From a virus (taxonomy: Duplodnaviria; Heunggongvirae; Uroviricota; Caudoviricetes), in IMG/VR virus record IMGVR_UViG_2703718806_000003: a stretch of DNA of 11,573 bases; one strand, given 5' to 3'. Both the position numbers and the translations under genes were made by a program. The notes beneath the pieces are model-generated. The model was given only the letters and a program-made list of their open reading frames with translations. It was not told the DNA's origin and did no database searches. Of this stretch, positions 1 through 11,573 are shown piece after piece. Position 1 is the first letter of the stretch. Each line of letters starts with the position of its first letter.

Positions 1-479
1 GCAGTACCGCGAAACAACCCAAGCCAGTAAGTGGGGAAATAACACTGGCAGCCACTGAAAGATGAACCTCCAGCCTTATGGCAAAAAAGATTCTTTGTGG
101 TGGCGGACTGATGGAAAGACATCGGTTATTGCAGAGGCCATTCAATGAGTGGTCTCGACAATGGCTTATACCCTACACGGGATAACTTAATTGATATCCT
201 TTTTAACGGATAAAGGCATTTCAGCCTGACATAGCCATGCGCCGTATCGTCGCCGTATTCCTGCATTAACAGAGACCGCAGCCCGACAGGGAGACTCCTC
301 TGCGAGAGTGTGCGGGGATAATCAAAAACGATACACACCGGGGTTTACCGCGTTAACGGAGCGCGGCGTTGTCCCCTCATGGTCGCTGGTCCGGTGCGAT
401 GGTGGAAGAAACTGGATTTTGTTGCAACTGATAACCATTATCATTTTACGGGTCCTTTCCGGCGATCCGGGCCGTTACG

Positions 480-491
480 GGGCGGCGACCT
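480..491 (+). other. cosN: cosN cohesive-end site; the 12-nt lambda cohesive end GGGCGGCGACCT
   Basis: Exact 12-mer GGGCGGCGACCT read at 480-491. Flanks (gccgttacg before; cgcgcgttttcactatttatgaaaatttt after) closely resemble the lambda left end as I recall it. It lies about 170 bp upstream of the Nu1 start, as in lambda. Confidence 0.85.
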
Positions 492-650
492 CGCGCGTTT
501 TCACTATTTATGAAAATTTTTCGGGAAAAAGCAGATCCGTTCTTCTTCTTTTTAACTGATTGATTATCAATAGAATATTAAAAATATAAAAGGATCTGAC
601 AAAGGCTGTTTTTGTTCGAAAACGCCATTTTCAGATCCTTTCTGGTTCCC
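492..650 (+). promoter_or_regulatory. cosB: cosB-like terminase small-subunit binding region: R3-like element (cagatccgttcttc, ~531-545), AT-rich putative IHF bend site (~546-588), R2-like inverted element (aaaggatctga, 589-599), R1-like element (tcagatcctttctgg, 631-645)
   Basis: Seen in sequence: 589-599 (aaaggatctga) is the exact reverse complement of 631-641 (tcagatccttt), and a related direct copy cagatcc-g-ttcttc sits at 532-545. The intervening stretch is strongly AT-rich. The arrangement of two direct elements, one inverted and an AT-rich spacer mirrors lambda cosB R3-I1-R2-R1. Assignment of individual elements is inferred. Confidence 0.55.
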
Positions 651-660
651 GGGGGAGTGT

Positions 661-1209
661 ATGAACGTCAATAAGAAAAAACTGGCCGATATTTTTGGCG
701 TTGATGTCAGGACCATCACCGCCTGGCAGAGTCAGGGGTTACCACTAGTTTCTGGTGGAGGGAAAGGGACTGAATCAGTTTTTGATACAACTGCTGCCAT
801 TCAGTGGTATGCGCAGAGGGAAGCTGATATTGAAAACGAAAAACTCCGTAAAGAGATCGAGGATTTGAGGGCTGCCAGCGAATCAGACCTTCAGCCCGGC
901 ACCATTGATTACGAACGTTACCGACTGACGAAGGCACAGGCCGATGCACAGGAGCTGAAAAATGCTCGTGAGGAAGGCCTTGTCCTCGAGACGGAGTTAT
1001 TTACCTACATCTTTCAGCGAGTGGCACAGAATATATCAGGGATCCTTGTCCGTGTTCCTCAGACACTGCAGCGTAAATACCCTGATATATCACCCGTACA
1101 TCTTGATGCTGTGAAAACTGAAATCGCGAAAGCATCCGATGTGGCTTCTGAAGCCGGTGAGAATGTGCGCAGGTGGATTGATGATTTCAGACGAACTGAG
1201 GGCGGCTAA
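661..1209 (+). CDS. Nu1: Terminase small subunit (lambda gpNu1 homologue), 182 aa
   Basis: Translation [29 protein letters not shown]...GGGKG...[47 protein letters not shown] matches recalled lambda Nu1 (MEVNKKQLADIFGAS...) over most of its length. Length is about the same as lambda Nu1 (~181 aa). A GGGGGAG ribosome-binding site sits 7 nt upstream of the ATG at 661. The gene lies immediately downstream of cos. Confidence 0.95.
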
Positions 1210-3109
1210 TTCTGCAGGAGCGATAGCAACCGGCCTCCTTGCGCTAAAAATTCCTGTCCCTCTGACGACAGTTCAGTGGGCAGATCGACATTATTACCTT
1301 CCGAAAGAGTCATCTTACACCCCGGGGCGGTGGGAAACACTGCCGTTTCAGGTTGCCATCATGAACAGCATGGGGAATGACCGGATCCGCACTGTTAATC
1401 TGATTAAATCTGCCCGTGTTGGTTATACAAAGATGTTGCTGGGAGTGGAGGCTTATTTTATTGAGCATAAATCACGCAACAGCCTTCTTTTCCAGCCCAC
1501 GGATTCTGCTGCTGAAGATTTTATGAAATCTCATGTGGAACCCACGATCAGGGATGTGCCGGTTTTACTCGATCTTGCACCGTGGTTTGGGCGTAAACAT
1601 CGTGATAATACCCTCACGCTGAAACGTTTTTCATCGGGCGTGGGCTTCTGGTGCCTGGGCGGGGCTGCCGCTAAAAACTACCGTGAAAAATCCGTGGACG
1701 TGGTCTGCTATGACGAACTTTCCTCGTTCGAACCGGATGTCGAAAAAGAGGGTTCGCCAACCCTGCTTGGGGATAAACGTATTGAGGGCTCTGTATGGCC
1801 CAAATCCATTCGCGGCTCGACGCCTAAAATCAAAGGCACCTGCCAGATCGAAAAAGCGGCCAACGAGTCGGCGCATTTCATGCGTTTTTATGTGCCCTGC
1901 CCACACTGTGGGGAGGAGCAGTATCTGAAATTTGGCGATGAATCCACGCCTTTTGGCCTTAAATGGGAGAAGGACAGCCCCGAAAGCGTTTTCTACCTCT
2001 GTGAACATCATGGCTGCGTGATCCATCAGTCTGAGCTTGACCAGAGCAACGGGCGGTGGATCTGTGAAAACACGGGGATGTGGACCCGTGACGGTCTGAC
2101 GTTTTTCAGCGCCGCGGATAATGAAATTCCGCCGCCGCGCTCCATCACGTTCCATATCTGGACGGCGTACAGTCCGTTCACCACCTGGGTACAGATAGTC
2201 TATGACTGGCTGGATGCACTGAAAGATCCCAACGGCCTGAAAACCTTTGTGAACACCACGCTGGGCGAGACCTGGGAAGAGGCCGTGGGCGAAAAACTCG
2301 ATCACCAGGTACTGATGGATAAGGTCGTGCATTACACGGCGGCGGTGCCAGCCCGGGTGGTTTATCTGACGGCGGGCATTGACTCGCAGCGAAACCGTTT
2401 TGAGATGTATGTCTGGGGATGGGCACCGGGAGAGGAAGCTTTTCTGGTGGATAAAATCATCATTATGGGCCGTCCCGATGAGGAAGAGACGCTGTTACGT
2501 GTGGATGCGGCGATCAACAAAAAATACTGCCATGCAGACGGAACCGAAATGACCATTTCCCGTGTCTGCTGGGACACCGGGGGGATCGATGGTGAAATTG
2601 TCTATCAGAGGTCAAAAAAACACGGTGTTTTCCGGGTGCTGCCGGTAAAAGGCGCATCTGTCTATGGCAAGCCGGTGATCACCATGCCGAAAACCCGCAA
2701 TCAGCGGGGCGTGTATCTGTGTGAAGTGGGGACGGACACCGCAAAAGAAATTCTCTATGCCCGTATGAAAGCCGATCCCACGCCTGCGGATGAAGCCACG
2801 TCGTATGCCATCCGTTTTCCTGATGATCCGGAGATTTTTTCGCAGACAGAGGCGCAGCAACTGGTCGCGGAAGAGCTTGTGGAGAAGTGGGAAAAAGGAA
2901 AGATGCGTCTGCTGTGGGATAACAAAAAGCGGCGTAACGAAGCGCTGGACTGCCTGGTGTATGCCTATGCGGCATTACGTGTGTCCGTGCAACGCTGGCA
3001 GCTTGATCTGGCTGTACTGGCAAAATCCCGGGAAGAAGAGACGACCCGGCCAACCCTGAAAGAACTGGCAGCGAAGCTGTCCGGAGGAGTGAATGGTTAC
3101 AGTCGCTGA
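1181..3109 (+). CDS. A: Terminase large subunit (lambda gpA homologue), ~642 aa from ATG 1181
   Basis: The ORF translation contains [79 protein letters not shown] and [23 protein letters not shown], all close to recalled lambda gpA. The ORF track starts at 1139, but ATG 1181 gives a length matching lambda gpA (~641 aa) and a 29-nt overlap with the Nu1 stop like lambda. The start is uncertain between 1139, 1163 and 1181. Confidence 0.93.
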
Positions 3110-3299
3110 ACTACAGGCGCTGCGTCAGGCGCGCCTTGATTTATTAACCGGTAAACGGGTGGTGTCTGTCCAGAAAGATGGTCGCAGAATTGAATATACG
3201 GCGGCTTCTCTGGATGAGCTTAACCGGGCGATCAATGATGCGGAGTCGGTACTGGGGACAACCCGACGTCGCCGTCGTCCGCTGGGAGTGAGGTTATGA
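3093..3299 (+). CDS. W: Head-tail joining / head completion protein (lambda gpW homologue), 68 aa
   Basis: Translation ...LTGKRVVSVQKDGRRIEYTAASLDEL... matches lambda gpW ([24 protein letters not shown]), which is also 68 aa. GGAGG at 3083-3087 sits 5 nt upstream of the ATG. The start overlaps the A stop. Confidence 0.93.
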   Translation: MVTVAELQALRQARLDLLTGKRVVSVQKDGRRIEYTAASLDELNRAINDAESVLGTTRRRRRPLGVRL

Positions 3300-4888
3300 A
3301 ACGAACGCCTGTCCTGATTGATGTGAACGGCGTTCCGCTTCGTGAGAGTCTCAGCTACAACGGGGGCGGCGCAGGATTTGGCGGGCAAATGGCGGAGTGG
3401 TTGCCACCGGCGCAGAGTGCCGATGCAGCCCTGCTGCCTGCGTTGCGTCTGGGGAATGCCCGGGCAGATGATCTGGTGCGCAATAACGGGATAGCGGCTA
3501 ATGCGGTGGCCCTGCATAAGGATCATATTGTCGGGCATATGTTTCTGATCAGCTACCGTCCGAACTGGCGCTGGCTGGGGATGCGGGAGACTGCGGCAAA
3601 AAGTTTTGTCGATGAGGTGGAGGCGGCCTGGTCGGAATACGCCGAAGGGATGTTTGGCGAGATCGACGTGGAAGGGAAACGCACGTTTACGGAATTTATC
3701 CGTGAAGGTGTGGGCGTTCATGCGTTTAACGGCGAAATCTTTGTGCAGCCGGTCTGGGATACGGAGAGCACGCAACTGTTTCGTACGCGTTTTAAAGCCG
3801 TGAGTCCGAAACGGGTGGACACGCCAGGACACGGTATGGGGAACCGTTTTCTGCGGGCCGGTGTGGAGGTCGATCGATATGGTCGTGCCGTTGCGTACCA
3901 TATCTGTGAGGATGATTTTCCGTTCTCTGGGAGTGGACGATGGGAACGGATCCCGCGTGAACTTCCCACCGGGCGTCCGGCCATGCTGCATATTTTCGAG
4001 CCGGTGGAGGACGGGCAGACCCGTGGGGCCAATCAGTTTTACAGCGTCATGGAACGGCTGAAGATGCTCGATTCCCTGCAGGCAACACAGCTTCAGTCGG
4101 CCATAGTGAAGGCGATGTATGCAGCGACGATTGAAAGTGACCTTGATACCGAAAAGGCCTTTGAATATATCGCCGGTGCGCCGCAGGGGCAGAAGGATAA
4201 TCCGCTTATTAATATTCTGGATAAGTTCTCCACCTGGTATGACACGAATAGCGTGACGCTGGGCGGTGTTAAAATTCCGCACCTTTTCCCCGGTGATGAT
4301 CTGAAACTTCAGACCGCGCAGGATTCAGACAATGGATTTTCGGCGCTTGAACAGGCGCTGCTGCGGTATATCGCCGCCGGTCTTGGCGTTTCCTACGAAC
4401 AGTTGTCTCGTGATTACTCGAAGGTCAGTTATTCAAGTGCCCGCGCATCCGCCAATGAGTCGTGGCGCTATTTTATGGGGCGGCGAAAATTTATTGCGTC
4501 CCGGCTGGCCACGCAGATGTTTTCCTGCTGGCTGGAAGAGGCACTTCTTCGGGGGATTATTCGTCCGCCACGGGCACGTTTTGATTTTTATCAGGCGCGA
4601 TCAGCCTGGTCACGGGCTGAGTGGATTGGAGCCGGAAGAATGGCCATTGACGGGCTCAAGGAGGTTCAGGAATCAGTGATGCGCATTGAGGCCGGACTGA
4701 GCACGTATGAGAAAGAGCTGGCGCTGATGGGCGAGGATTATCAGGACATTTTCCGCCAGCAGGTCAGGGAATCTGCAGAGCGGGAAAAAGCCGGACTCTC
4801 ACGTCCGGTGTGGATAGCGCAGGCGTATCAGCAGCAGATAGCGGAGAGTCGCAGGCCGGAAGAGGAGACAACACCACGTGAGACGTAA
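3296..4888 (+). CDS. B: Portal protein (lambda gpB homologue), 530 aa
   Basis: Position and size match lambda gpB (~533 aa). An ATGA start/stop overlap with W indicates translational coupling. The N-terminus MKRTPVLIDVNG... and the long uninterrupted ORF with enteric codon usage are consistent. Homology is judged by recall of the lambda B family and gene order. Confidence 0.93.
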   Translation: MKRTPVLIDVNGVPLRESLSYNGGGAGFGGQMAEWLPPAQSADAALLPALRLGNARADDLVRNNGIAANAVALHKDHIVGHMFLISYRPNWRWLGMRETAAKSFVDEVEAAWSEYAEGMFGEIDVEGKRTFTEFIREGVGVHAFNGEIFVQPVWDTESTQLFRTRFKAVSPKRVDTPGHGMGNRFLRAGVEVDRYGRAVAYHICEDDFPFSGSGRWERIPRELPTGRPAMLHIFEPVEDGQTRGANQFYSVMERLKMLDSLQATQLQSAIVKAMYAATIESDLDTEKAFEYIAGAPQGQKDNPLINILDKFSTWYDTNSVTLGGVKIPHLFPGDDLKLQTAQDSDNGFSALEQALLRYIAAGLGVSYEQLSRDYSKVSYSSARASANESWRYFMGRRKFIASRLATQMFSCWLEEALLRGIIRPPRARFDFYQARSAWSRAEWIGAGRMAIDGLKEVQESVMRIEAGLSTYEKELALMGEDYQDIFRQQVRESAEREKAGLSRPVWIAQAYQQQIAESRRPEEETTPRET

Positions 4889-6383
4889 TCTTTCACACAT
4901 TATTGCCGCAGCATTCAATGAACCGCTGCTTCTGGAGCCCGCCTATGCGCGGGTTTTCTTTTGCGCGCTCGGGCGCGAGATGGGGGCAGCAAGTCTTTCG
5001 GTACCACAACAGCAGGTACAGCTTGATGCTCCCGGAATGCTGGCTGAAACGGACGAGTACATGGCCGGAGGTAAACGACCGGCCCGTGTTTACCGGGTGG
5101 TGAACGGTATTGCTGTACTGCCGGTGACCGGCACGCTGGTGCACCGGCTGGGCGGTATGCGGCCATTTTCCGGAATGACAGGCTATGACGGCATTGTCGC
5201 CTGTCTTCAGCAGGCAATGGCAGATAGCCAGGTGCGGGGCGTACTGCTGGACATTGACAGTCCTGGCGGGCAGGCCGCCGGCGCGTTTGACTGCGCTGAC
5301 ATGATTTACCGCCTCCGTCAGCAGAAGCCGGTCTGGGCACTGTGCAATGACACGGCCTGTTCTGCAGCCATGCTGCTGGCGTCGGCCTGCTCCCGACGGC
5401 TGGTTACCCAGACATCCCGTATCGGCTCCATTGGCGTGATGATGAGCCATGTCAGCTATGCCGGTCATCTGGCGCAGGCCGGGGTGGATATCACGCTGAT
5501 TTATGCCGGGGCGCACAAGGTGGATGGCAATCAGTTTGAAGCCTTACCGGCAGAGGTGCGTCAGGACATGCAGCAGCGGGTTGATGCGGCGCACCGGATG
5601 TTTGCCGAAAAAGTGGCGATGTATACGGGGCTGTCTGTGGAAGCTGTCACGGGGACAGAGGCTGCCGTTTTTGAAGGTCAGTCCGCTATTAAGGCCGGAC
5701 TGGCGGATGAATTAATCAATGCGTCGGATGCCATCAGCGTGATGGCTGCGGCGCTGAACACTCATGATACAGGAGGCACTATGCCGCAATTAACTGCAAC
5801 GGAAGCTGCCGCGCAGGAGAACCAGCGAGTGATGGGGATCCTGACGTGTCAGGAAGCGAAAGGACGTGAACAGCTTGCCACGATGCTGGCAGGACAACAG
5901 GGCATGAGCATTGAACAGGCCCGGGCGATTCTGGCCGCGGCGGCACCACAGCAGCCGGTGGCATCCGCGCAGAGTGAAGCCGATCGCATTATGGCGTGTG
6001 AAGAAGCGAAAGGTCGTGAACAACTGGCGGCAACGCTGGCGGCGATGCCGGAGATGACGGTGGAAAAAGCCCGCCCGATCCTCGCTGCCTCACCGCAGGC
6101 GAATGCCGGGCCCTCACTTCGTGATCAGATCATGGCCCTGGATGAGGCAAAAGGGGCAGAAGCGCAGGCTGAAAAACTGGCGGCCTGCCCGGGAATGACC
6201 GTGGAGAACGCCCGGGCTGTGCTGGCTGCGGGATCAGGTAAGGCCGAACCGGTCTCTGCATCCACAACCGCCTTGTTTGAACATTTCATGGCGAACCATT
6301 CACCGGCAGCGGTACAGGGTGGCGTGTCACAGACGTCAGCAGACGGTGATGCGGACGTGAAAATGCTCATGGCCATGCCATGA
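4878..6383 (+). CDS. C: Head maturation protease / scaffold (lambda gpC homologue, S49 ClpP-like peptidase family), 501 aa, GTG start
   Basis: N-terminus ...AFNEPLLLEPAYARVFFCAL... is nearly identical to recalled lambda gpC (MAFNEPLMLEPAYARVFFCAL). Also matching are GIAVLPVTGTLV, MTGYDGI, GVLLDIDSPGG..AGAFDCADMI, KPVWAL.ND...SAA.LLASA.SRRLVTQT.R.GSIGVMM and LIYAGAHKVDGN. No in-frame ATG is available upstream of the conserved region; GTG 4878 is preceded by GAGGAG at 4862-4867. It is about 60 aa longer than lambda gpC (~439 aa) because of C-terminal repeats. Confidence 0.9.
   Translation: MRRNLSHIIAAAFNEPLLLEPAYARVFFCALGREMGAASLSVPQQQVQLDAPGMLAETDEYMAGGKRPARVYRVVNGIAVLPVTGTLVHRLGGMRPFSGMTGYDGIVACLQQAMADSQVRGVLLDIDSPGGQAAGAFDCADMIYRLRQQKPVWALCNDTACSAAMLLASACSRRLVTQTSRIGSIGVMMSHVSYAGHLAQAGVDITLIYAGAHKVDGNQFEALPAEVRQDMQQRVDAAHRMFAEKVAMYTGLSVEAVTGTEAAVFEGQSAIKAGLADELINASDAISVMAAALNTHDTGGTMPQLTATEAAAQENQRVMGILTCQEAKGREQLATMLAGQQGMSIEQARAILAAAAPQQPVASAQSEADRIMACEEAKGREQLAATLAAMPEMTVEKARPILAASPQANAGPSLRDQIMALDEAKGAEAQAEKLAACPGMTVENARAVLAAGSGKAEPVSASTTALFEHFMANHSPAAVQGGVSQTSADGDADVKMLMAMP
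5781..6383 (+). CDS. Nu3: Putative nested in-frame scaffolding protein (lambda gpNu3 analogue) translated from an internal start of C, ~200 aa
   Basis: A perfect AGGAGG at 5771-5776 sits 4 nt upstream of in-frame ATG 5781 inside C. In lambda, Nu3 is expressed from an internal in-frame start in the 3' part of C. The downstream sequence is Ala/Glu/Gln-rich and repetitive, typical of a scaffold. The internal start is inferred, not demonstrated. Confidence 0.55.
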   Translation: MPQLTATEAAAQENQRVMGILTCQEAKGREQLATMLAGQQGMSIEQARAILAAAAPQQPVASAQSEADRIMACEEAKGREQLAATLAAMPEMTVEKARPILAASPQANAGPSLRDQIMALDEAKGAEAQAEKLAACPGMTVENARAVLAAGSGKAEPVSASTTALFEHFMANHSPAAVQGGVSQTSADGDADVKMLMAMP

Positions 6384-6418
6384 AGTCAGTGCTGACATCA
6401 ATATGAGGTTTTTACAAA

Positions 6419-6766
6419 ATGGTGACGAAAACCATCACTGAACAGCGTGCGGAAGTACGTATTTTTGCCGGTAATGATCCGGCTCACACTGCCACAGGCA
6501 GCAGCGGGATTTCTTCTGCAACACCGGCTCTGACGCCCCTGATGCTGGATGAAGCCAGCGGGAAACTGGTGGTCTGGGACGGACAGAAAGCCGGTAGTGC
6601 GGTTGGCATACTGGTACTGCCGCTTGAAGGCACAGAGACGGTGCTGACCTATTACAAGTCGGGGACCTTTGCGACGGAGGCAATCCACTGGCCTGAAAGT
6701 GTGGATGAACACAAAAAGGCAAACGCCTTTGCTGGCAGTGCCCTGAGTCACGCGGCTCTGCCGTAA
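6419..6766 (+). CDS. D: Head decoration protein (lambda gpD homologue), 115 aa
   Basis: Translation contains DPAHTAT, TPLMLD, KLVVWDG, AVGIL, YYKSGTF, WPE and AFAGSA in the same order as lambda gpD (~110 aa). It lies between C and E as in lambda. Confidence 0.93.
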   Translation: MVTKTITEQRAEVRIFAGNDPAHTATGSSGISSATPALTPLMLDEASGKLVVWDGQKAGSAVGILVLPLEGTETVLTYYKSGTFATEAIHWPESVDEHKKANAFAGSALSHAALP

Positions 6767-6823
6767 CACGTTATCAGGCCACTACGTTGGCCTGACTGAT
6801 TTCTTAATGAAAGGAACTGATTT

Positions 6824-7852
6824 ATGGGATTGTTTACGACCCGCCAGTTGCTCGGTTATACCGAACAAAAAGTGAAATTTCGTGCGCTGTTTCTGGAACT
6901 GTTTTTCCGCCGTACGGTGAATTTCCACACTGAAGAGGTGATGCTGGACAAAATTACCGGAAAAACGCCTGTGGCGGCCTATGTCTCCCCGGTCGTTGAA
7001 GGAAAAGTGTTGCGTCATCGTGGTGGTGAAACCCGTGTGTTACGTCCGGGCTATGTCAAGCCGAAACACGAATTTAATTACCAGCAGGCGGTTGAGCGCC
7101 TTCCTGGTGAAGATCCGACTCAACTGAACGATCAGACTTACCGCCGTCTGCGTATCATTACCGATAACCTCAAACAGGAAGAGCACGCGATTGTCCAGGT
7201 GGAAGAAATGCAGGCAGTAAATGCTGTGTTGTATGGCAAATACACCATGGAAGGAGACCAGTTCGAGAAAATTGAGGTCGATTTTGGCAGGTCGACGAAG
7301 AATAACATCACTCAGGGTAGTGGTAAGGAGTGGTCAAAACAGGATCGTGACACGTTCGATCCTACACATGATATTGATCTCTACTGCGACCAGGCCAGCG
7401 GTCTTGTGAATATTGCCATTATGGACGGTATCGTCTGGCGTCTGCTGAATGGCTTTAAGCTGTTCCGTGAAAAACTGGATACCCGTCGCGGCTCAAATTC
7501 ACAACTCGAAACGGCAGTGAAAGACCTGGGGGCGGTGGTGTCCTTCAAAGGGTATTACGGCGATCTGGCCATTGTGGTGGCGAAAACGTCTTATGTGGCA
7601 GAGGACGGTACCGAAAAACGTTATCTGCCGGAGGGCTCGCTGGTTCTGGGGAATACGGCAGCAGATGGCATTCGTTGTTACGGTGCCATTCAGGATGCGC
7701 AGGCGTTGTCCGAAGGTGTGGTGGCCTCTTCCCGTTATCCGAAACACTGGCAGACCGTGGGCGATCCGGCCCGTGAATTCACCATGACGCAGTCCGCGCC
7801 GCTGATGGTGTTGCCGGACCCGGATGAGTTTGTGGTGGTACAGGTGAAATAA
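6824..7852 (+). CDS. E: Major capsid protein (lambda gpE homologue), 342 aa
   Basis: Translation contains YVSPVVEG, PGYVKPKHE, RRLRII, AIVQVEEMQAVNAVLYGKYTMEGD, LDTRRGSNSQLETAVKDLG, GDLAIVV and GDPAREFTMTQSAPLMVLPDPDEFVVVQ, closely matching recalled lambda gpE (~341 aa). An AAAGGA ribosome-binding site lies upstream of ATG 6824. Confidence 0.95.
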   Translation: MGLFTTRQLLGYTEQKVKFRALFLELFFRRTVNFHTEEVMLDKITGKTPVAAYVSPVVEGKVLRHRGGETRVLRPGYVKPKHEFNYQQAVERLPGEDPTQLNDQTYRRLRIITDNLKQEEHAIVQVEEMQAVNAVLYGKYTMEGDQFEKIEVDFGRSTKNNITQGSGKEWSKQDRDTFDPTHDIDLYCDQASGLVNIAIMDGIVWRLLNGFKLFREKLDTRRGSNSQLETAVKDLGAVVSFKGYYGDLAIVVAKTSYVAEDGTEKRYLPEGSLVLGNTAADGIRCYGAIQDAQALSEGVVASSRYPKHWQTVGDPAREFTMTQSAPLMVLPDPDEFVVVQVK

Positions 7853-7861
7853 TCCGTGAGA

Positions 7862-7889
7862 GGGGGCGAAATGCCCCCGTGTCTTTTTT
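7862..7889 (+). terminator. Rho-independent terminator-like hairpin downstream of E: stem GGGGGC (7862-7867), loop GAAAT, stem GCCCCC (7873-7878), then T-tract at 7884-7889
   Basis: Read directly: agggggcGAAATgcccccgtgtcttttttc, starting 10 nt after the E stop codon. A perfect 6-bp G/C stem followed by a run of six T is the canonical intrinsic terminator architecture. Function is inferred. Confidence 0.5.
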
Positions 7890-7903
7890 CACTGGGGGCT
7901 GAT

Positions 7904-8278
7904 ATGGCAACGAAAGAGCAAAATCTGAAACGGCTTGATGAACTGGCCCTGATTCTGGGGCGTGAGCCGGATATTTCCGGGAGTGCCGCAGAGATAGCGC
8001 AGCGGGTGGCAGAATGGGAAGAGGAAATGCAGTCATCCGGCGATGATGTACAGGTTATGAATATGGATATCCGGGAGCGGGAAACCGCGGCTCATGATGT
8101 TCGTGGGGAAACATCCGGCGCGTTAACGCGCATCAGAGTTCTGACCTGCCTCCATCTCTGTGGCGTTGATGGTGAAACGGGGGAATCCGTTGAGCTTGCG
8201 GATGTTGGTCGGGTGATTCTGATTATGTCCTCAGATGCAAAAACACACGTTGATGGTGGAATGGCTGTTTATGCGTGA
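7904..8278 (+). CDS. FI: DNA-packaging accessory / head assembly protein (lambda gpFI homologue), ~124 aa from ATG 7904
   Basis: Position between E and FII, size near lambda gpFI (~132 aa), and an acidic N-terminal half (EWEEEMQSSGDD) are consistent. GGGGG lies about 8 nt upstream of ATG 7904. Sequence similarity to lambda FI is weak by eye, so the call rests mostly on synteny and size. The ORF-track start GTG 7856 would lie inside the terminator hairpin and is not preferred. Confidence 0.75.
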   Translation: MATKEQNLKRLDELALILGREPDISGSAAEIAQRVAEWEEEMQSSGDDVQVMNMDIRERETAAHDVRGETSGALTRIRVLTCLHLCGVDGETGESVELADVGRVILIMSSDAKTHVDGGMAVYA

Positions 8279-8624
8279 TTTTCAGAATGCCTTTGATGCC
8301 GCCCTTGCGGGGGTGGACAGCACGATTGTTGAAGTGATGGGGCTCTGTGCGCAGTTCACCTCGGGGGCACAGTGTGGCAGCGAAGTTCAGGGGGTTTTTG
8401 ACGATCCTGAGTCGCTGGGTTTTGCCGGTAGCGGGGTCCGTATTGAAGGAAGCAGCCCGTCATTATTTGTGCGGACGGATACGGTATGTTTCGTGCGGCG
8501 TGGTGACACGCTGACCATTAATGGTGAGACATTCTGGGTGGATCGTGTTTCTCCGGATGACGGGGGCAGTTGTTATCTCTGGCTGAACCGTGGGCAACCA
8601 CCCGCAGTTAACCGGCGACGATAA
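8271..8624 (+). CDS. FII: Head-tail connector / tail attachment protein (lambda gpFII homologue), 117 aa from ATG 8271
   Basis: Translation from MRDFQNAFDAALAG... contains GVFDDPES, GVRIEGSSPSLFVRTD, RRGDTLTI, FWVDRVSPDDGGSC.LWL.RG.PPAVNRRR, nearly identical to recalled lambda gpFII. The length of 117 aa equals lambda gpFII. The start overlaps the FI stop. The ORF-track start at 8235 would add 12 residues absent from lambda. Confidence 0.9.
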   Translation: MRDFQNAFDAALAGVDSTIVEVMGLCAQFTSGAQCGSEVQGVFDDPESLGFAGSGVRIEGSSPSLFVRTDTVCFVRRGDTLTINGETFWVDRVSPDDGGSCYLWLNRGQPPAVNRRR

Positions 8625-8638
8625 ACGCAGGGTGAATT

Positions 8639-9214
8639 ATGGCGATAAAAGGGCTTGATCAGGCGATTGACAATCTGAGCCGGGTTCGTAAAAACGCCAT
8701 TCCGGCGGCTTCTGCAATGACCATTAACCGCGTGGCCACAACGGCGATTAATCAGTCTTCGTCACAGGTTGCCCGGGAAACCAGGGTGAGACGGAAACTG
8801 GTTAAGGAACGGTCCAGACTGAAACGGGCCACGGTCAGAAATCCGAATGCCAGAATTATCGTTAACCGCGGTGATCTCCCTGTTATTAAGCTGGGGATCA
8901 GAATGCTGGGGCGTCGTCCGGACAGCATACTCAAAGCCGGTCAGCATCGTTATCAGCGGGCATTTATCCAGCGATTAAATAATGGGCGCTGGCATGTTAT
9001 GCAACGTCTTCCCCAGGCCAGATATGAGGAGGGCAATGATGACAAGGGCAGGAAAAAGCGTAATCGCCTTCCCATTCAGGTGGTGAAAATCCCGATGGCG
9101 GCCCCACTGAAACAGGCGTTTGATGAAAACGTTGACCGTATCCGTCGTGAACGCCTGCCCAAAGAACTGGCATATGCGCTGAAACAACAACTGAGGATTG
9201 CGATAAAACGATGA
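8639..9214 (+). CDS. Z: Tail completion protein (lambda gpZ homologue), 191 aa
   Basis: Translation MAIKGLDQAIDNLSRV...INRVA..AI.QS.SQVARET.VRRKLVKER.RLKRATV.NP.ARI.VNRGDLPVIKLG...NGRWHVMQR...VVKIPMA.PL..AF..N..RIRRERLPKEL.YAL..QLR..IKR is nearly collinear with lambda gpZ (~192 aa). Confidence 0.94.
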   Translation: MAIKGLDQAIDNLSRVRKNAIPAASAMTINRVATTAINQSSSQVARETRVRRKLVKERSRLKRATVRNPNARIIVNRGDLPVIKLGIRMLGRRPDSILKAGQHRYQRAFIQRLNNGRWHVMQRLPQARYEEGNDDKGRKKRNRLPIQVVKIPMAAPLKQAFDENVDRIRRERLPKELAYALKQQLRIAIKR

Positions 9215-9606
9215 AACATACTGATATTCGTGCCGCCGTGCTGGATGCACTCGAGCAGCATGAACACGGGGCGACGCTGTTTGATGGTCGCCCCGTTGTT
9301 TTTGACGAAGAGGATTTTCCCGCGATCGCGGTTTATCTGACGGATGCAGAGTATACCGGTGAAGAGCTGGATGCAGATACCTGGCGGGCCACACTGCATA
9401 TTGAGGTGTTTTTACCGGCACAGGTACCGGATTCAGAGCTTGATCTGTGGATGGAAAGCCGGATTTACCCGGCGATAACTGCGATCCCGGCACTGGCAGG
9501 CCTGATTACCACAATGGTTACGCAGGGCTATGAGTATCGTCGTGATGACGATATGGCGTTATGGAGTTCTGCGGATCTGACTTATTCCATTACATACGAG
9601 ATGTGA
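9211..9606 (+). CDS. U: Tail tube terminator protein (lambda gpU homologue), 131 aa
   Basis: Translation [75 protein letters not shown]...[31 protein letters not shown] matches lambda gpU (131 aa). An ATGA overlap couples it to the Z stop. Confidence 0.95.
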
Positions 9607-9613
9607 GGACGAT

Positions 9614-10363
9614 ATGGCAACACCAAATCCCCTTGAGCCGGTGAAAGGTTCCGGCACCACGCTATGGGTGTACACCGGCACTGGTGATGCTTATGCAAAC
9701 CCGTTGTCAGACGATGACTGGCAGCGACTGGCGAAGGTGAAGGATCTGACCCCCGGCGAGATGACGGCGGAATCCTACGATGATAACTATCTGGATGATG
9801 AGGATGCTGACTGGGTATCCACCGGGCAGGGGCAGAAATCTGCCGGTGACACCAGTTTTACGCTGGCCTGGAAGCCGGGTGAGAAAGGGCAGCGCGATTT
9901 GATTGCCTGGTTTGACAGCAGTGAGACCCGGGCCTACAAAATTCGCTTCCCGAACGGTACGGTGGATGTGTTCCGTGGCTGGGTGAGCGCCATTGGTAAA
10001 GCGGTGACCGCCAAAGAGGTGATCACCCGTACGGTAAAAATCACCAATATCGGTCGTCCGTCGCTGGCGGAAGATCAGGGGGACATCACACCGGTCACCG
10101 GTATTACCGTGACGCCACCAACGGGCAATGTGGCAAAAGGTCAGAATATCACCCTGACCGTGGCTGTTCAGCCGGAAGGGGCGACGGATAAAACCTTCCG
10201 TGCCACGTCGGCGAATCAGAATTTTGCGACAATTACCGTGAAAGGGAACACGATCACCGTGAAAGGTGTTGCGGCAGGTAAAGCGCAGATCCCTGTGGTT
10301 ACCGGTAATGGTGAGTTTGCGGCAGTGGCGGAGATCACCGTCACGGATGGTGCAGCGGGTTAA
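9614..10363 (+). CDS. V: Major tail tube protein (lambda gpV homologue) with C-terminal Ig-like (Big_2-type) domain, 249 aa
   Basis: Position after U and size near lambda gpV (~246 aa). The C-terminal third ([33 protein letters not shown]...[35 protein letters not shown]) has the beta-rich alternating pattern of the bacterial Ig-like domain found at the gpV C-terminus. A GAGGA ribosome-binding site precedes ATG 9614. Confidence 0.94.
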
Positions 10364-10382
10364 GCTGAGGGAGTGATAAAGC

Positions 10383-10814
10383 ATGTTTCTGAAAACAGAA
10401 CAATTTGAATATAACGGTGTGTCTGTCACGCTTTCTGAGCTGTCTGCGCTGCAGCGTATTGAGCATCTTGCCCTCCTGAAACGGCGGGCAGAAGAGGCTG
10501 AAGCCAGCGGTAACCTGCAGGTGAGCGTGGAGGACCTTGTCAGAACCGGGGCGTTTCTGGTGGCGATGTCCCTGTGGCATAACCATCCACAGAAAACGGC
10601 GTCACCGTCAATGAATGAGGCCGTGATGAAGATAGAGCAGGAAGTGCTCACCACCTGGCCTGCCGATGCCATTGCCCGGGCGGAAGACGTTGTGTTGTGC
10701 CTGTCCGGGATGATCGAAGCTGTTCGTCCGGATACTGATATCACCGAAGTGGCGAAAAATAACGCGCTGACTGATGATGATTTTTCTGCGGGAAAGTCTT
10801 CGACGGCGAGCTGA
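10383..10814 (+). CDS. G: Tail assembly chaperone (lambda gpG homologue), 143 aa
   Basis: Translation MFLKTEQFEYNGVSVTLSELSALQRIEHLALLKRRAE...RTGAFLVAMSLWHNHPQKT..PSMNEAV..IEQEVLTTWP is nearly identical to recalled lambda gpG (MFLKTESFEHNGVTVTLSELSALQRIEHLALMKRQAE...). Confidence 0.95.
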   Translation: MFLKTEQFEYNGVSVTLSELSALQRIEHLALLKRRAEEAEASGNLQVSVEDLVRTGAFLVAMSLWHNHPQKTASPSMNEAVMKIEQEVLTTWPADAIARAEDVVLCLSGMIEAVRPDTDITEVAKNNALTDDDFSAGKSSTAS

Positions 10815-11254
10815 ACTTTGCCCTCAGACTGGCGCGTGAGATGGGGAGACCCGACTGGCGCGCCATGCTTGCCGGGATGACATCCACCGAATATGCCGAC
10901 TGGCGACGTTTTTACCGCACGCATTATTTTCACGATACCCAGCTGGATATGCATTTTTCCGGGCTGACGTACGCCGTACTCAGCCTGTTTTTTTGCGATC
11001 CGGATATGCATCCCTCGGATTTCAGTCTGCTTGTCCCCCGGCGTGAGGAAGCGCAGACGGAGAGGCCGGATGAGGAAGACATGCTGATGCAGAAAGCGGC
11101 AGGACTTGCCGGAGGCGTCCGGTTCGGTGGGGAGGGAGGGGGCGATATTTCACCTTCTGCGGATGTGGTGGATGTCAGCGAGGATGATGTTGCATTAATG
11201 ATGGCTTCAGCGGGGATTTCCGGAGGTGTGAGATATGTCCCAGCCGGTTGGTGA
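10383..11254 (+). CDS. T: Tail assembly chaperone G-T fusion produced by -1 frameshift at 10790-10796; the T-frame portion ends at 11254
   Basis: The -1 frame downstream of the slippery site reads VFDGELNFALRLAREMGRPDWRAMLAGMTSTEYADW.RFY.THYFHD..LDMHFSGLTY.VLSLFF.DPDMHP.DFSLL...QKAAGLAGGVRFG, matching the T portion of recalled lambda gpGT. The T frame has no plausible independent start with a ribosome-binding site. Coordinates span both frames; the feature is not a single continuous reading frame. Confidence 0.85.
10790..10796 (+). promoter_or_regulatory. Programmed -1 ribosomal frameshift slippery heptamer G_GGA_AAG at the 3' end of G
   Basis: Read directly: gcGGGAAAGtc, with GGA and AAG in the G zero frame (10791 and 10794 are codon first positions). 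This is the same heptamer used for lambda G-T frameshifting. The -1 frame continues open from here into the T ORF. Confidence 0.85.
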
Positions 11255-11573
11255 TCTTGTTATTGACCTGAGTCTGGATGCGGTCCGTTTCGATGAGCAG
11301 ATGACCCGCGTAAGGCGTCATTTTTCAGGACTGGAGACTGACGCCAGAAAAACCGCCACTGCTGTTGAGCAGGGGCTGAGCCGCCAGGCGCTGGCTGCAC
11401 AAAAAGCCGGGATGTCCGTCGGGCAGTATAAAGCCGCCATGCGTATGCTACCCATGCAGTTCACCGACGTGGCCACGCAGCTTGCCGGTGGTCAGAATCC
11501 CTGGCTCATCCTGCTGCAACAGGGCGGTCAGGTGAAGGACTCATTCGGCGGGATGATCCCCATGTTCCGGGGG
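11235..11573 (+). CDS. H: Tail tape measure protein (lambda gpH homologue), 5' partial; continues beyond window end
   Basis: Translation from ATG 11235 is MSQPVGDLVIDLSLDAVRFDEQMTRVRRHFSG...QALAAQKAGMSVGQYKAAMRMLPMQFTDVATQLAGGQNPWLILLQQGGQVKDSFGGMIPMFRG, nearly identical to the recalled lambda gpH N-terminus. GGAGG at 11223-11227 sits 7 nt upstream. There is no stop before the window edge. Confidence 0.93.
   Translation, partial: MSQPVGDLVIDLSLDAVRFDEQMTRVRRHFSGLETDARKTATAVEQGLSRQALAAQKAGMSVGQYKAAMRMLPMQFTDVATQLAGGQNPWLILLQQGGQVKDSFGGMIPMFRG

What the first reader, a model, noticed from the sequence alone, without database searches (positions are those of the whole stretch)
492..660. cosB repeat elements differ from lambda while cosN is identical
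cosN (GGGCGGCGACCT) and its immediate flanks look essentially lambda-like. The downstream binding elements, however, are built on a different core (CAGATCC / GGATCTG; direct copies near 532 and 632, inverted copy at 589-599) than the lambda R sites as I recall them (core around CGTTTCC). This suggests a terminase with lambda-type nicking chemistry but a different DNA-recognition specificity in the small subunit.
Basis: partly seen in the sequence, partly recalled or inferred. Interest (0 to 1): 0.4.

Follow-up and report, generated by a model that had tools for sequence, protein, structure and literature searches.

The report
Gifsy-1-type terminase binding sites (cosB)
The three CAGATCC repeats beside a lambda-identical cohesive-end site are real: they are the small-terminase docking sites of a recognition class already seen in Salmonella phage Gifsy-1, here carried by a phage-21-like E. 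coli prophage, which makes this a tidy but largely ordinary example of modular phage packaging signals.

Summary
CAGATCC occurs at 532-538 (+), 592-598 (-) and 632-638 (+). These are the positions and orientations of lambda and phage 21 R3, R2 and R1. A perfect IHF consensus (553-565) lies between R3 and R2, and cosQ and cosN are lambda-identical.

The adjacent small terminase (TerS, 661-1209) has recognition helix RTITAWQSQ, against RTIQNWQEQ in lambda and RTIERWQSQ in phage 21. It therefore differs at residues 20, 21 and 24, and residues 20 and 24 are known to set lambda/21 specificity. In R3, critical bp 56 is A, against T in lambda and G in 21.

In 116 related loci the helix class and R core class co-vary without exception. 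A DNA-first scan gave the same result. The R cores are 89-100% conserved while the spacers are 49-60% conserved.

This class is not new. Gifsy-1 has the same cores and helix, its tripartite cosB is mentioned in the literature, and its TerS DNA-binding domain is in the PDB (7LXS). The window is a phage-21-like head region carrying this cosB plus DNA-binding-domain cassette.

In passing, I found PICI-type satellites that carry a second, TerS-less cos of this same class.

The parts
450..456 (+). cosQ (GGGTCCT), the packaging-termination element, inside the R4-like block 449-460
   Evidence: It has the same 7-mer at the same offset (bp -30 to -24) as lambda 48473-48479. The block is 85% conserved among 8 lineages. 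It does not change with R class, which makes it an internal control. The equivalent interval is annotated R4 in phage 21 M81255.
480..491 (+). cosN 12-nt cohesive-end sequence GGGCGGCGACCT (nicking region 475-496)
   Evidence: It is identical to lambda and phage 21. There is one flank difference at bp 17.
497..528 (+). I2, the AT-rich spacer between cosN and cosB (bp 18-49)
   Evidence: It aligns without gaps to lambda, 21 and Gifsy-1 and is 75% conserved within the class. I2 is defined in PMC4856287.
529..544 (+). R3, the critical TerS binding site (core CAGATCC 532-538, which is bp 53-59)
   Evidence: It occupies bp 50-65, the interval annotated R3 in phage 21. The core is 100% conserved and the 3' half 94% conserved across 8 lineages.
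553..565 (+). I1, an IHF site (TAACTGATTGATT) that matches YAANNNNTTGATW perfectly
   Evidence: It is the only match in the window. It falls inside bp 72-86, the interval annotated I1 in phage 21.
586..601 (-). R2, an inverted TerS binding site (core CAGATCC on the minus strand, 592-598)
   Evidence: It occupies bp 107-122, the annotated R2 interval of phage 21. It is 92% conserved in the class and is the most variable of the three.
629..644 (+). R1, a direct TerS binding site (core CAGATCC 632-638)
   Evidence: It occupies bp 150-165, the annotated R1 interval of phage 21. The core is 89% conserved, with [CGA]AGATCC variants.
661..1209 (+). TerS gene (182 aa, Nu1 family). The winged-helix DNA-binding domain is residues 1-55 (661-825).
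   Evidence: Pfam Phage_Nu1 E=1.6e-86. PDB matches are 7LXS (Gifsy-1 DBD, 46/55 identical), 7LWR (21), and 7LW0 and 1J9I (lambda).
709..735 (+). Codons 17-25, the recognition helix RTITAWQSQ
   Evidence: See the alignment. The corresponding helix is RTIQNWQEQ in lambda, RTIERWQSQ in 21 and RTVTAWQSQ in Gifsy-1.
1181..3109 (+). TerL (gpA / gp2 family), the nicking and packaging ATPase that TerS positions on cosN
   Evidence: Pfam GpA_ATPase plus GpA_nuclease. The start is placed by analogy with phage 21 gene 2, which has a 29-nt overlap with gene 1.

Best explanation
Positions 450-660 are a complete lambda-type cos site of the complex (tripartite) kind. The order is cosQ, cosN, I2, R3, I1 (IHF), R2 (inverted), R1, followed directly by the TerS gene. 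The three CAGATCC elements are the R sequences. They are docked by the winged helix-turn-helix domain of the TerS encoded immediately downstream. IHF bends the DNA at I1 so that a TerS dimer can bridge R3 and R2. This anchors TerL about 47 bp away on cosN, where it makes the staggered nicks that give lambda-identical 12-nt cohesive ends. The R core (CAGATCC) and the TerS recognition helix (T20, A21, S24) belong to the class typified by Salmonella phage Gifsy-1. This class differs from both the lambda class (CGTTTCC with Q20/N21/E24) and the phage 21 class (CATGTCGG with E20/R21/S24). It therefore most likely confers a separate packaging-initiation specificity. cosN, cosQ, the TerS C-terminal region and TerL are of the 21/lambda type. 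cosB plus the first ~55 TerS codons behave as one exchangeable recognition cassette. The anatomy, register, homology, covariation and conservation are shown here. Actual TerS binding and the degree of functional isolation from lambda and 21 are inferred.
For: (1) Three copies sit in the R3/R2/R1 positions and orientations, at P about 3e-6. (2) The alignment to lambda, 21 and Gifsy-1 from the cohesive end is gap-free. The cores lie at bp 53-59, 113-119 and 153-159, against 53, 114 and 154 in lambda, and fall inside the R3, I1, R2 and R1 features annotated in M81255. (3) There is a perfect IHF consensus at the I1 position. (4) TerS is a Nu1-family protein with a wHTH domain 84% identical to the solved Gifsy-1 domain 7LXS. 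Wing residue Lys35 is conserved. (5) The helix differs from lambda and 21 at residues 20, 21 and 24. R3 differs at bp 54-56, including bp 56. Residues 20 and 24 and bp 56 and 59 are the published specificity contacts (PMC4669245, PMC9026076). (6) Among 116 loci the counts are 28 lambda-type, 49 21-type, 36 CAGATCC-type, 2 CACTTCC-type and 1 N15-type, with no mixed pairing. In the DNA-first scan, all 52 loci with an intact co-oriented TerS had a T/S20-class helix. (7) Footprint: the R cores are 89-100% conserved against 49-60% for the spacers across 8 lineages that include Salmonella and Providencia. (8) Modularity: the same cosB/helix class is found with at least 8 different cosN sequences. 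The window's TerS is closest to Gifsy-1 in residues 1-55 (46/55, against 40/55 for 21) but closest to 21 afterwards (76/85 and 33/42). (9) Satellites carry this cosB as a second cos beside a cos of another class, which only makes sense if the classes are not interchangeable.
Against: No binding or packaging data exist for this class in anything I could find. cosB and the TerS 5' end are less than 200 bp apart, so covariation is partly explained by linkage alone. The published two-contact scheme does not predict this class. Residue 24 is Ser in both 21 and this class although bp 56 differs, and bp 59 is C in both lambda and this class although residue 20 differs. The identical helix RTITTWQSQ occurs with CAGATCC in L151 and L200 but with CACTTCC in Serratia L048, so the helix alone does not fix the core. 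N15 terminase packages lambda DNA at about 50% efficiency despite much greater divergence (PMC4669245). Because the 3' half of the R element is shared with lambda, partial cross-recognition is plausible.
Confidence: 0.72

Rival explanations
1. The sites are R sequences, but the sequence difference is functionally shallow. On this view the TerS cross-recognises lambda-type and/or 21-type cosB, or is recognised by their TerS proteins. That would make this a drifted variant rather than a separate packaging specificity.
For: The 3' half of each R element, CC(G/T)TTCT, and bp 58-59 are identical to lambda. N15-specific terminase packages lambda DNA at about half efficiency (PMC4669245). Lambda and 21 wings can be exchanged without effect (PMC9026076). 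The helix-to-core mapping is not one-to-one.
Against: bp 56 is a third state (A, against T in lambda and G in 21). A single change there contributes to the more than 1000-fold discrimination between lambda and 21. There was no mixed helix/core pairing in 116 + 52 loci despite frequent recombination on both sides of the cassette. Satellites keep a CAGATCC cos alongside a 21-type or N15-type cos.
Confidence: 0.2
2. The change of core adds a regulatory layer. Each R core contains a Dam site (GATC at bp 55-58 of R3), so TerS binding and cos cleavage would depend on the adenine-methylation state. This would be analogous to the Dam-regulated pac site of phage P1 (the P1 comparison is from my own knowledge).
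For: GATC is present in all three R cores of the window. It is kept in 27/27 R3, 27/27 R1 and 24/27 R2 across the class. It covers bp 56 and 58, both genetically critical in lambda. Lambda and 21 R cores contain no GATC.
Against: GATC conservation cannot be separated from conservation of the core itself. R2 lacks GATC in 3 of the 27 distinct sequences (GGAACTG in L085, GGAAGTG in Providencia L130 and L131) without loss of the architecture. No literature support was found.
Confidence: 0.1
3. The repeats are not terminase sites. They would instead be chance repeats or signals for something else, such as a late-operon promoter or terminator, or a host regulator.
For: The R2/R1 pair forms a 23-nt imperfect inverted repeat that could in principle fold or bind a dimeric regulator.
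Against: Chance is excluded. Promoter-like and terminator-like hits in 1-1300 do not exceed the shuffled expectation, and none is on the + strand. The position, orientation and spacing reproduce the annotated R sites of phage 21. The repeats travel with cosN even in satellites that lack the downstream genes.
Confidence: 0.03

Closest known systems
Salmonella phage Gifsy-1 cos and TerS (NC_010392; TerS DNA-binding domain PDB 7LXS)
   Same: It has the same R cores: R3 CCAGATCCGTTCTTCTT, R2 AAAGGATCTG and R1 GCAGATCCTTTCC. The spacing is the same (bp 53, 114 and 154). The recognition helix is RTVTAWQSQ against RTITAWQSQ in the window, and the DNA-binding domain is 46/55 identical.
   Different: Gifsy-1 cosN is GGGCGGCAGCGT, which differs at bp 8, 9 and 11. 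The spacers are only about 50-60% identical. The TerS C-terminal region differs (12/24 aligned). The rest of the window is phage-21-like, not Gifsy-1-like.
Phage 21 cosB / gp1 (M81255, OL657228)
   Same: cosN and cosQ are identical and the R3-I1-R2-R1 layout is the same. TerS is 82% identical overall and 89% identical in residues 56-140. The head and tail region is 89.7% identical in DNA over 764-11573.
   Different: The 21 R core is C(G/A)TGTCGG and the helix is RTIERWQSQ. DNA identity falls to 40-62% across the cosB core (540-660) and 55-70% across the first TerS codons (660-780), against about 80% on either side.
Phage lambda cosB / gpNu1 (J02459; PDB 1J9I, 7LW0)
   Same: The cohesive end is identical and the architecture and register are the same. 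The 3' half of each R element and the R3 3' flank (GTTCTTCTTC) are shared.
   Different: The lambda core is CGTTTCC and the helix is RTIQNWQEQ. TerS is only 52% identical.
Phage N15 simple cosB (AF064539)
   Same: It is a lambda-like cos with a documented third packaging specificity. The proposal that R3-R1 unequal crossover creates a simple cosB is mirrored by locus L074 of the window's class.
   Different: N15 has a single R3 (GAGGTTGTTGTT), no I1, R2 or R1, and an unrelated helix (AFDKWGV).
E. coli PICI EcCICFT073 dual cos sites and Rpp (PMC6092414, PMC6739421)
   Same: Satellites related to it (L167, L210) carry a TerS-less cos with the window's CAGATCC cosB. It sits where EcCICFT073 has cos2, and the 60-bp flank is identical.
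   Different: Those are satellite elements. The window is a full phage head and tail region with its own cognate TerS and TerL.

Membership tests
Lambda-like complex (tripartite) cos site | 12-nt 5' cohesive-end sequence with strong identity to lambda cosN | tested here: met
   GGGCGGCGACCT at 480-491 is identical to lambda and 21.
Lambda-like complex (tripartite) cos site | Conserved 7-bp cosQ upstream of cosN | tested here: met
   GGGTCCT at 450-456 (bp -30 to -24) has the same offset as in lambda.
Lambda-like complex (tripartite) cos site | Three R sequences, with R2 inverted relative to R3 and R1 | tested here: met
   Copies at 532 (+), 592 (-) and 632 (+), inside the intervals annotated R3, R2 and R1 in M81255.
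Lambda-like complex (tripartite) cos site | Fixed distance from cosN to R3 (R3 at about bp 50-65) | tested here: met
   The core lies at bp 53-59 with no indel relative to lambda, 21 or Gifsy-1.
Lambda-like complex (tripartite) cos site | IHF site (I1) between R3 and R2 | tested here: met
   TAACTGATTGATT at 553-565 is a perfect YAANNNNTTGATW match and the only one in the window. This is a consensus match only; binding was not tested.
Lambda-like complex (tripartite) cos site | Nu1-family TerS with an N-terminal winged HTH encoded directly downstream, followed by gpA-family TerL | tested here: met
   Pfam Phage_Nu1, GpA_ATPase and GpA_nuclease. PDB 1J9I, 7LW0, 7LWR and 7LXS.
Lambda-like complex (tripartite) cos site | TerS binds the R sequences and TerL nicks cosN | not testable with these tools
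   This needs EMSA or footprinting and cos-cleavage assays.
Lambda packaging specificity | R core CGTTTCC (T at bp 56) with helix RTIQNWQ(E/D)Q | tested here: not met
   The window has CAGATCC (A at bp 56) and RTITAWQSQ.
Phage 21 packaging specificity | R core C(A/G)TGTCGG (G at bp 56, G/A at bp 59) with helix RTI(E/D)RWQ(S/T)Q | tested here: not met
   Both the core and helix residues 20-21 differ, although residues 56-182 of TerS are 21-like.
Gifsy-1-type cosB / TerS recognition class | Three (C/G/A)AGATCC cores in the R3, R2 and R1 positions | tested here: met
Gifsy-1-type cosB / TerS recognition class | TerS helix RT(I/V)T(A/G/S/T)WQSQ and a DNA-binding domain close to 7LXS | tested here: met
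   RTITAWQSQ, and 46/55 identical to the Gifsy-1 domain.
Gifsy-1-type cosB / TerS recognition class | Gifsy-1 cohesive end (GGGCGGCAGCGT) | tested here: not met
   The window has the lambda/21 cohesive end. The survey shows that cosN type assorts independently of the cosB class, so I do not treat this feature as defining.
Gifsy-1-type cosB / TerS recognition class | Functional isolation from lambda, 21 and N15 terminases | not testable with these tools
   No published test was found. PMC4669245 lists only the lambda, 21 and N15 specificities as documented.

The most novel reading that the evidence does not exclude
The Gifsy-1-type cassette (CAGATCC R sites plus the T20/A21/S24 TerS domain) is a fourth, functionally isolated packaging specificity among lambda-like phages. 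It moves as a unit between phages with different cosN and different TerL. PICI-type satellites copy it, without its TerS, as their second cos, so that helper phages of this class can package them directly. [quoted passage not shown] A further possibility is that the GATC inside every R core makes recognition sensitive to Dam methylation.
Probability: 0.3. Interest if true: 0.6.

Novelty: new member of a known kind. Interest (0 to 1): 0.3.

Why it matters
Packaging specificity decides which DNA a phage, and any satellite that parasitises it, can move between cells. Only three lambda-like specificities (lambda, 21 and N15) are documented experimentally. The class seen here matters for three reasons.

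- It is common in E. coli: at least 228 of 5,426 complete genomes carry a near-full-length (at least 80% coverage) match to this cosB/TerS segment.
- It occurs across Salmonella, Escherichia and Providencia.
- It appears to be borrowed by PICI satellites.

If it is functionally distinct, it gives a natural third data point for the TerS helix/R-site recognition code. bp 56 would then be known in all of T, G and A. It would also help predict helper-satellite compatibility and cos-mediated transfer of virulence cargo. As a sequence feature it is nevertheless a known kind of element, with a known close relative in Gifsy-1.

Tried and rejected
- **Promoter and terminator scan of 1-1300:** nothing above the shuffled expectation and nothing on the + strand.
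- **Tandem repeats in the window:** none found.
- **Megablast and blastn of the cosB/DBD segment against 50,697 phage records:** only Gifsy-1 and the partial SerU-LTIIb record carry it. No isolated E. coli phage with this class was found there.
- **Literature:** Sippy et al. 2015 (PMC5006951), the key genetics paper, is not held. No paper was found for PDB 7LXS, 7LWR or 7LW0. There were no hits linking Dam methylation to lambdoid cos recognition.
- **HE-PICI integration into late genes** (PMC10111431) was considered as an explanation for the TerS-plus-inverted-cos loci and rejected. That paper describes no such arrangement, and EcCICFT073 itself shows the convergent dual-cos layout.
- **A simple helix-only recognition code** was considered and rejected, because RTITTWQSQ pairs with two different cores.
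- **Genome-level co-occurrence of satellite cos class with prophage TerS class** could not be computed. The E. coli genome search lists at most 60 records and cannot be restricted to one genome.
- **Structure prediction** was not run. A solved structure of an 84%-identical domain exists, and the tools cannot model protein-DNA complexes.

Full report
**1. The observation**

The heptamer CAGATCC occurs at 532-538 (+), 592-598 (-) and 632-638 (+). The whole window holds 7 copies against 1.67 expected, and no shuffle out of 200 reached 7. From that background rate, three copies within 180 bp have a Poisson probability of about 3e-6.

The repeat finder extends the two direct copies to 17 nt (532-548 and 632-648). 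It pairs the inverted and the second direct copy as a 23-nt inverted repeat.

GGGCGGCGACCT at 480-491 is identical to the lambda cohesive end, and the 22-bp nicking region differs from lambda at one base.

**2. Anatomy**

[quoted passage not shown] The cores lie at bp 53-59, 113-119 and 153-159, against 53, 114 and 154 in lambda-type loci.

The phage 21 record M81255 annotates these features:

| Feature | Position (bp from cohesive end) |
|---|---|
| R4 | -31 to -20 |
| I2 | 30-44 |
| R3 | 50-65 |
| I1 | 72-86 |
| R2 | 107-122 |
| R1 | 150-165 |

The three CAGATCC cores fall inside the R3, R2 and R1 intervals. The only match in the window to the IHF consensus YAANNNNTTGATW (553-565, perfect) falls inside the I1 interval. 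cosQ (GGGTCCT, 450-456) sits at the same offset as in lambda.

Only the 5' half of the R element differs from lambda (bp 54-56, GTT to AGA). The 3' half, CC(G/T)TTCT, is shared with lambda.

**3. The protein**

The ORF at 661-1209 is a Nu1-family small terminase, followed by a gpA-family large terminase, gpW, portal, S49 protease/scaffold, decoration and major capsid genes.

Its recognition helix (residues 17-25) compares as follows:

| Phage | Helix |
|---|---|
| Window | RTITAWQSQ |
| Lambda | RTIQNWQEQ |
| Phage 21 | RTIERWQSQ |
| Gifsy-1 | RTVTAWQSQ |

The literature places residues 20 and 24 next to R3 bp 59 and 56. It names bp 56, 58 and 59 as the functionally important base pairs (PMC4669245, PMC9026076). 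At bp 56 the window has A, lambda has T and 21 has G. At bp 59 the window has C, lambda has C and 21 has G.

The PDB holds the DNA-binding domains of lambda (1J9I, 7LW0), 21 (7LWR) and Gifsy-1 (7LXS). The window's domain is 46/55 identical to 7LXS.

**4. Relatives**

Gifsy-1 has the same three cores in the same places. I surveyed 116 loci from one-genome-per-species bacterial contigs and from IMG/VR. Helix class and R3 core class pair as follows, with no mixed pairing:

| Helix (residues 20-24) | R3 core | Loci |
|---|---|---|
| QNWQ(E/D) | C(G/A/T)TTTCC | 28 |
| (E/D)RWQ(S/T) | C(G/A)TGTC(G/A) | 49 |
| T(A/G/S)WQS, or STWQN | (C/A)AGATCC | 36 |
| TTWQ(S/A) | CACTTCC | 2 |
| N15 helix | N15 core | 1 |

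A scan that started from the DNA (CAGATCCGTTCTTCTT in IMG/VR) returned 80 loci. Their breakdown is below:

- 52 have an intact co-oriented TerS, and all 52 have a T/S20-class helix.
- 9 are frameshifted, deleted or cut by a contig end.
- 8 are chance matches outside any cos.
- 11 are satellites (see section 8).

Across eight lineage representatives, mean pairwise identity is 100% for the R3 core, 94% for its 3' half, 92% for R2 and 89% for the R1 core. The spacers are 49-60% identical.

**5. Modularity**

The CAGATCC/T20 class is found with at least eight different cohesive-end sequences, and the 21 class with several.

The window's TerS is closest to Gifsy-1 in residues 1-55 (46/55, against 40/55 for 21). 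It is closest to 21 afterwards (76/85 and 33/42). DNA identity to 21 falls to 40-62% across the cosB core (540-660), and 55-70% across the first TerS codons (660-780), against about 80% on either side.

From position 764 to the end, the window is 89.7% identical to phage 21. The window is therefore a phage-21-like morphogenesis region carrying the Gifsy-1-type cosB plus DNA-binding-domain cassette.

At least 228 of 5,426 complete E. coli genomes hold a match covering at least 80% of the segment 440-1210; the listed best matches are 98-99% identical. Among 50,697 phage records, only Gifsy-1 and the partial SerU-LTIIb record carry the cassette.

**6. Mechanism**

The following is inferred from the lambda paradigm. 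IHF bends the DNA at I1. A TerS dimer docks on R3 and R2, and R1 adds cooperativity. The TerS C-terminus holds TerL at a fixed distance, so that its nuclease nicks cosN and gives the 12-nt ends. Packaging then proceeds rightwards, and cosQ serves termination.

The specificity step is the helix (and probably wing) contact with bp 54-59. That is where this class differs from lambda and 21.

**7. Caveats**

- No binding or packaging experiment for this class was found.
- Linkage alone would produce some covariation, because the sites and the helix codons are less than 200 bp apart.
- The two-contact scheme does not predict this class. Residue 24 is Ser here and in 21 although bp 56 differs. bp 59 is C here and in lambda although residue 20 differs.
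- The identical helix RTITTWQSQ is paired with CAGATCC in L151 and L200 but with CACTTCC in Serratia L048, whose wing is longer.
- N15 terminase packages lambda DNA at about half efficiency, so partial cross-recognition cannot be excluded.

**8. Satellites, noticed in passing**

Eleven loci from the DNA-first scan are integrase- and primase-bearing islands without TerL. They hold two complete cos sites in convergent orientation around a lone TerS gene.

One cos has 21-type or N15-type R sites that match the island's own TerS helix. The other has the CAGATCC cosB and no cognate TerS.

EcCICFT073 has the same layout: cos1, then rppA, then an inverted cos2. The 60-bp flank beside cos2 is identical to that of L167 and L210. 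Its cos2 carries CATGTCCGG-type repeats, close to the 21-type cosB of its native helper, prophage 4.

Dual cos sites in PICIs are published, and their purpose is posed as an open question (PMC6092414, PMC6739421). The pattern suggests that the second cos copies a helper's cosB class. This supports the view that the classes are not interchangeable, but only indirectly.

**9. What is already known, and verdict**

[quoted passage not shown] Sippy et al. 2016 align bp 1-70 of Gifsy-1 with lambda, 21 and N15. Feiss et al. 2015 list only lambda, 21 and N15 as documented specificities.

The finding is therefore real and correctly read, but it is a new member of a known kind. Interest is modest at 0.3. 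It would rise if the class is shown to be functionally isolated, used in trans by satellites, or sensitive to Dam methylation: every R core contains GATC, kept in 27/27 R3, 27/27 R1 and 24/27 R2.

Noticed in passing
L147, L157, L160, L161, L178, L179, L185 (21-type); L167, L188, L210, L220 (N15-type). Example L160: TerS 9820-10401 (+), CAGATCC cos at about 10430-10650 (-), second cos at about 9600-9800 (+): These are PICI-like satellites. They carry an integrase, a DUF927 or AAA_25 replication protein, SSB and ProQ, plus K88 fimbrial or pyocin-DNase cargo or capsid E/D homologues, and no TerL. Each has two complete cos sites in convergent orientation flanking a lone TerS gene. One cos matches the island's own TerS helix class. 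The other is a TerS-less cos with the window's CAGATCC cosB.
   Followed up: partly
L263 (E. coli CFT073 NC_004431 1385000-1434000): cos1 bp 1 at locus 2559 (+), rppA 2660-3094, cos2 bp 1 at locus 3309 (-); prophage 4 cos at 39745 and TerS at 39933-40481: EcCICFT073 has the same convergent dual-cos layout. Its cos2 carries CATGTCCGG-type repeats (21-like), while its native helper, prophage 4, has a phage-21-identical TerS helix and a 21-type cosB. The 60 bp to the left of cos2 are identical to the flank of the CAGATCC cos in L167 and L210. This suggests that the second cos of these PICIs mimics a helper's cosB class.
   Followed up: partly
L074 (IMGVR_UViG_2529293040_000025), cosN at 920, TerS start 82 bp after bp 1 instead of 182: This close relative of the window has an exact 100-bp deletion between the R3 and R1 cores. 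It leaves a single fused R site and no I1 or R2. It is a natural example of the R3/R1 unequal crossover that Feiss and colleagues proposed for the origin of the simple N15 cosB. Whether the prophage still packages is unknown.
   Followed up: no
L151, L200 versus L048 (Serratia proteamaculans) and L049 (Cedecea): The recognition helix RTITTWQSQ, identical in L151, L200 and L048 (L049 has RTITTWQAQ), is paired with CAGATCC R sites in L151 and L200 and with CACTTCC R sites in L048 and L049. The latter two have a longer wing (AGEGNGGKGGEN). The helix alone therefore does not determine the R core. CACTTCC looks like yet another recognition class.
   Followed up: partly
window 534-537, 593-596, 634-637 (and 464-467 upstream of cosN): Each of the three R cores contains a Dam methylation site (GATC). 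In R3 it covers bp 55-58, including the genetically critical bp 56 and 58. Lambda and 21 R cores have none.
   Followed up: partly
L085-L088, L126, L130, L131, L147, L157, L178, L185 and others: The cohesive-end sequence varies widely among loci with otherwise lambda-like cos architecture. Examples are GGTCTGGGGACG, GGACGGCAGACG, GGGTGGCAACCG, GGTACGGGTACG and GGTAGCCATACG. It assorts independently of the cosB/TerS class. [quoted passage not shown]
   Followed up: no
L166, L193, L194, L211 (Gifsy-1-type loci), TerS codons 5-8: The run of A at the start of the Gifsy-1-type TerS gene (AATAAAAAAAAACTGG) is one A shorter in four loci, which frameshifts TerS after residue 6. This is either sequencing error in a homopolymer or genuine inactivation.
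   Followed up: no
L172, L208: These window-type prophages have TerS fused, by a deletion after about codon 27, to the middle of TerL. They are defective relics that keep an intact cos.
   Followed up: no
PDB 7LXS, 7LWR, 7LW0: Solved structures of the TerS DNA-binding domains of Gifsy-1, phage 21 and lambda (8 chains each) are deposited together. No describing paper could be found in the searchable library. Someone has evidently been comparing exactly these three recognition classes.
   Followed up: partly
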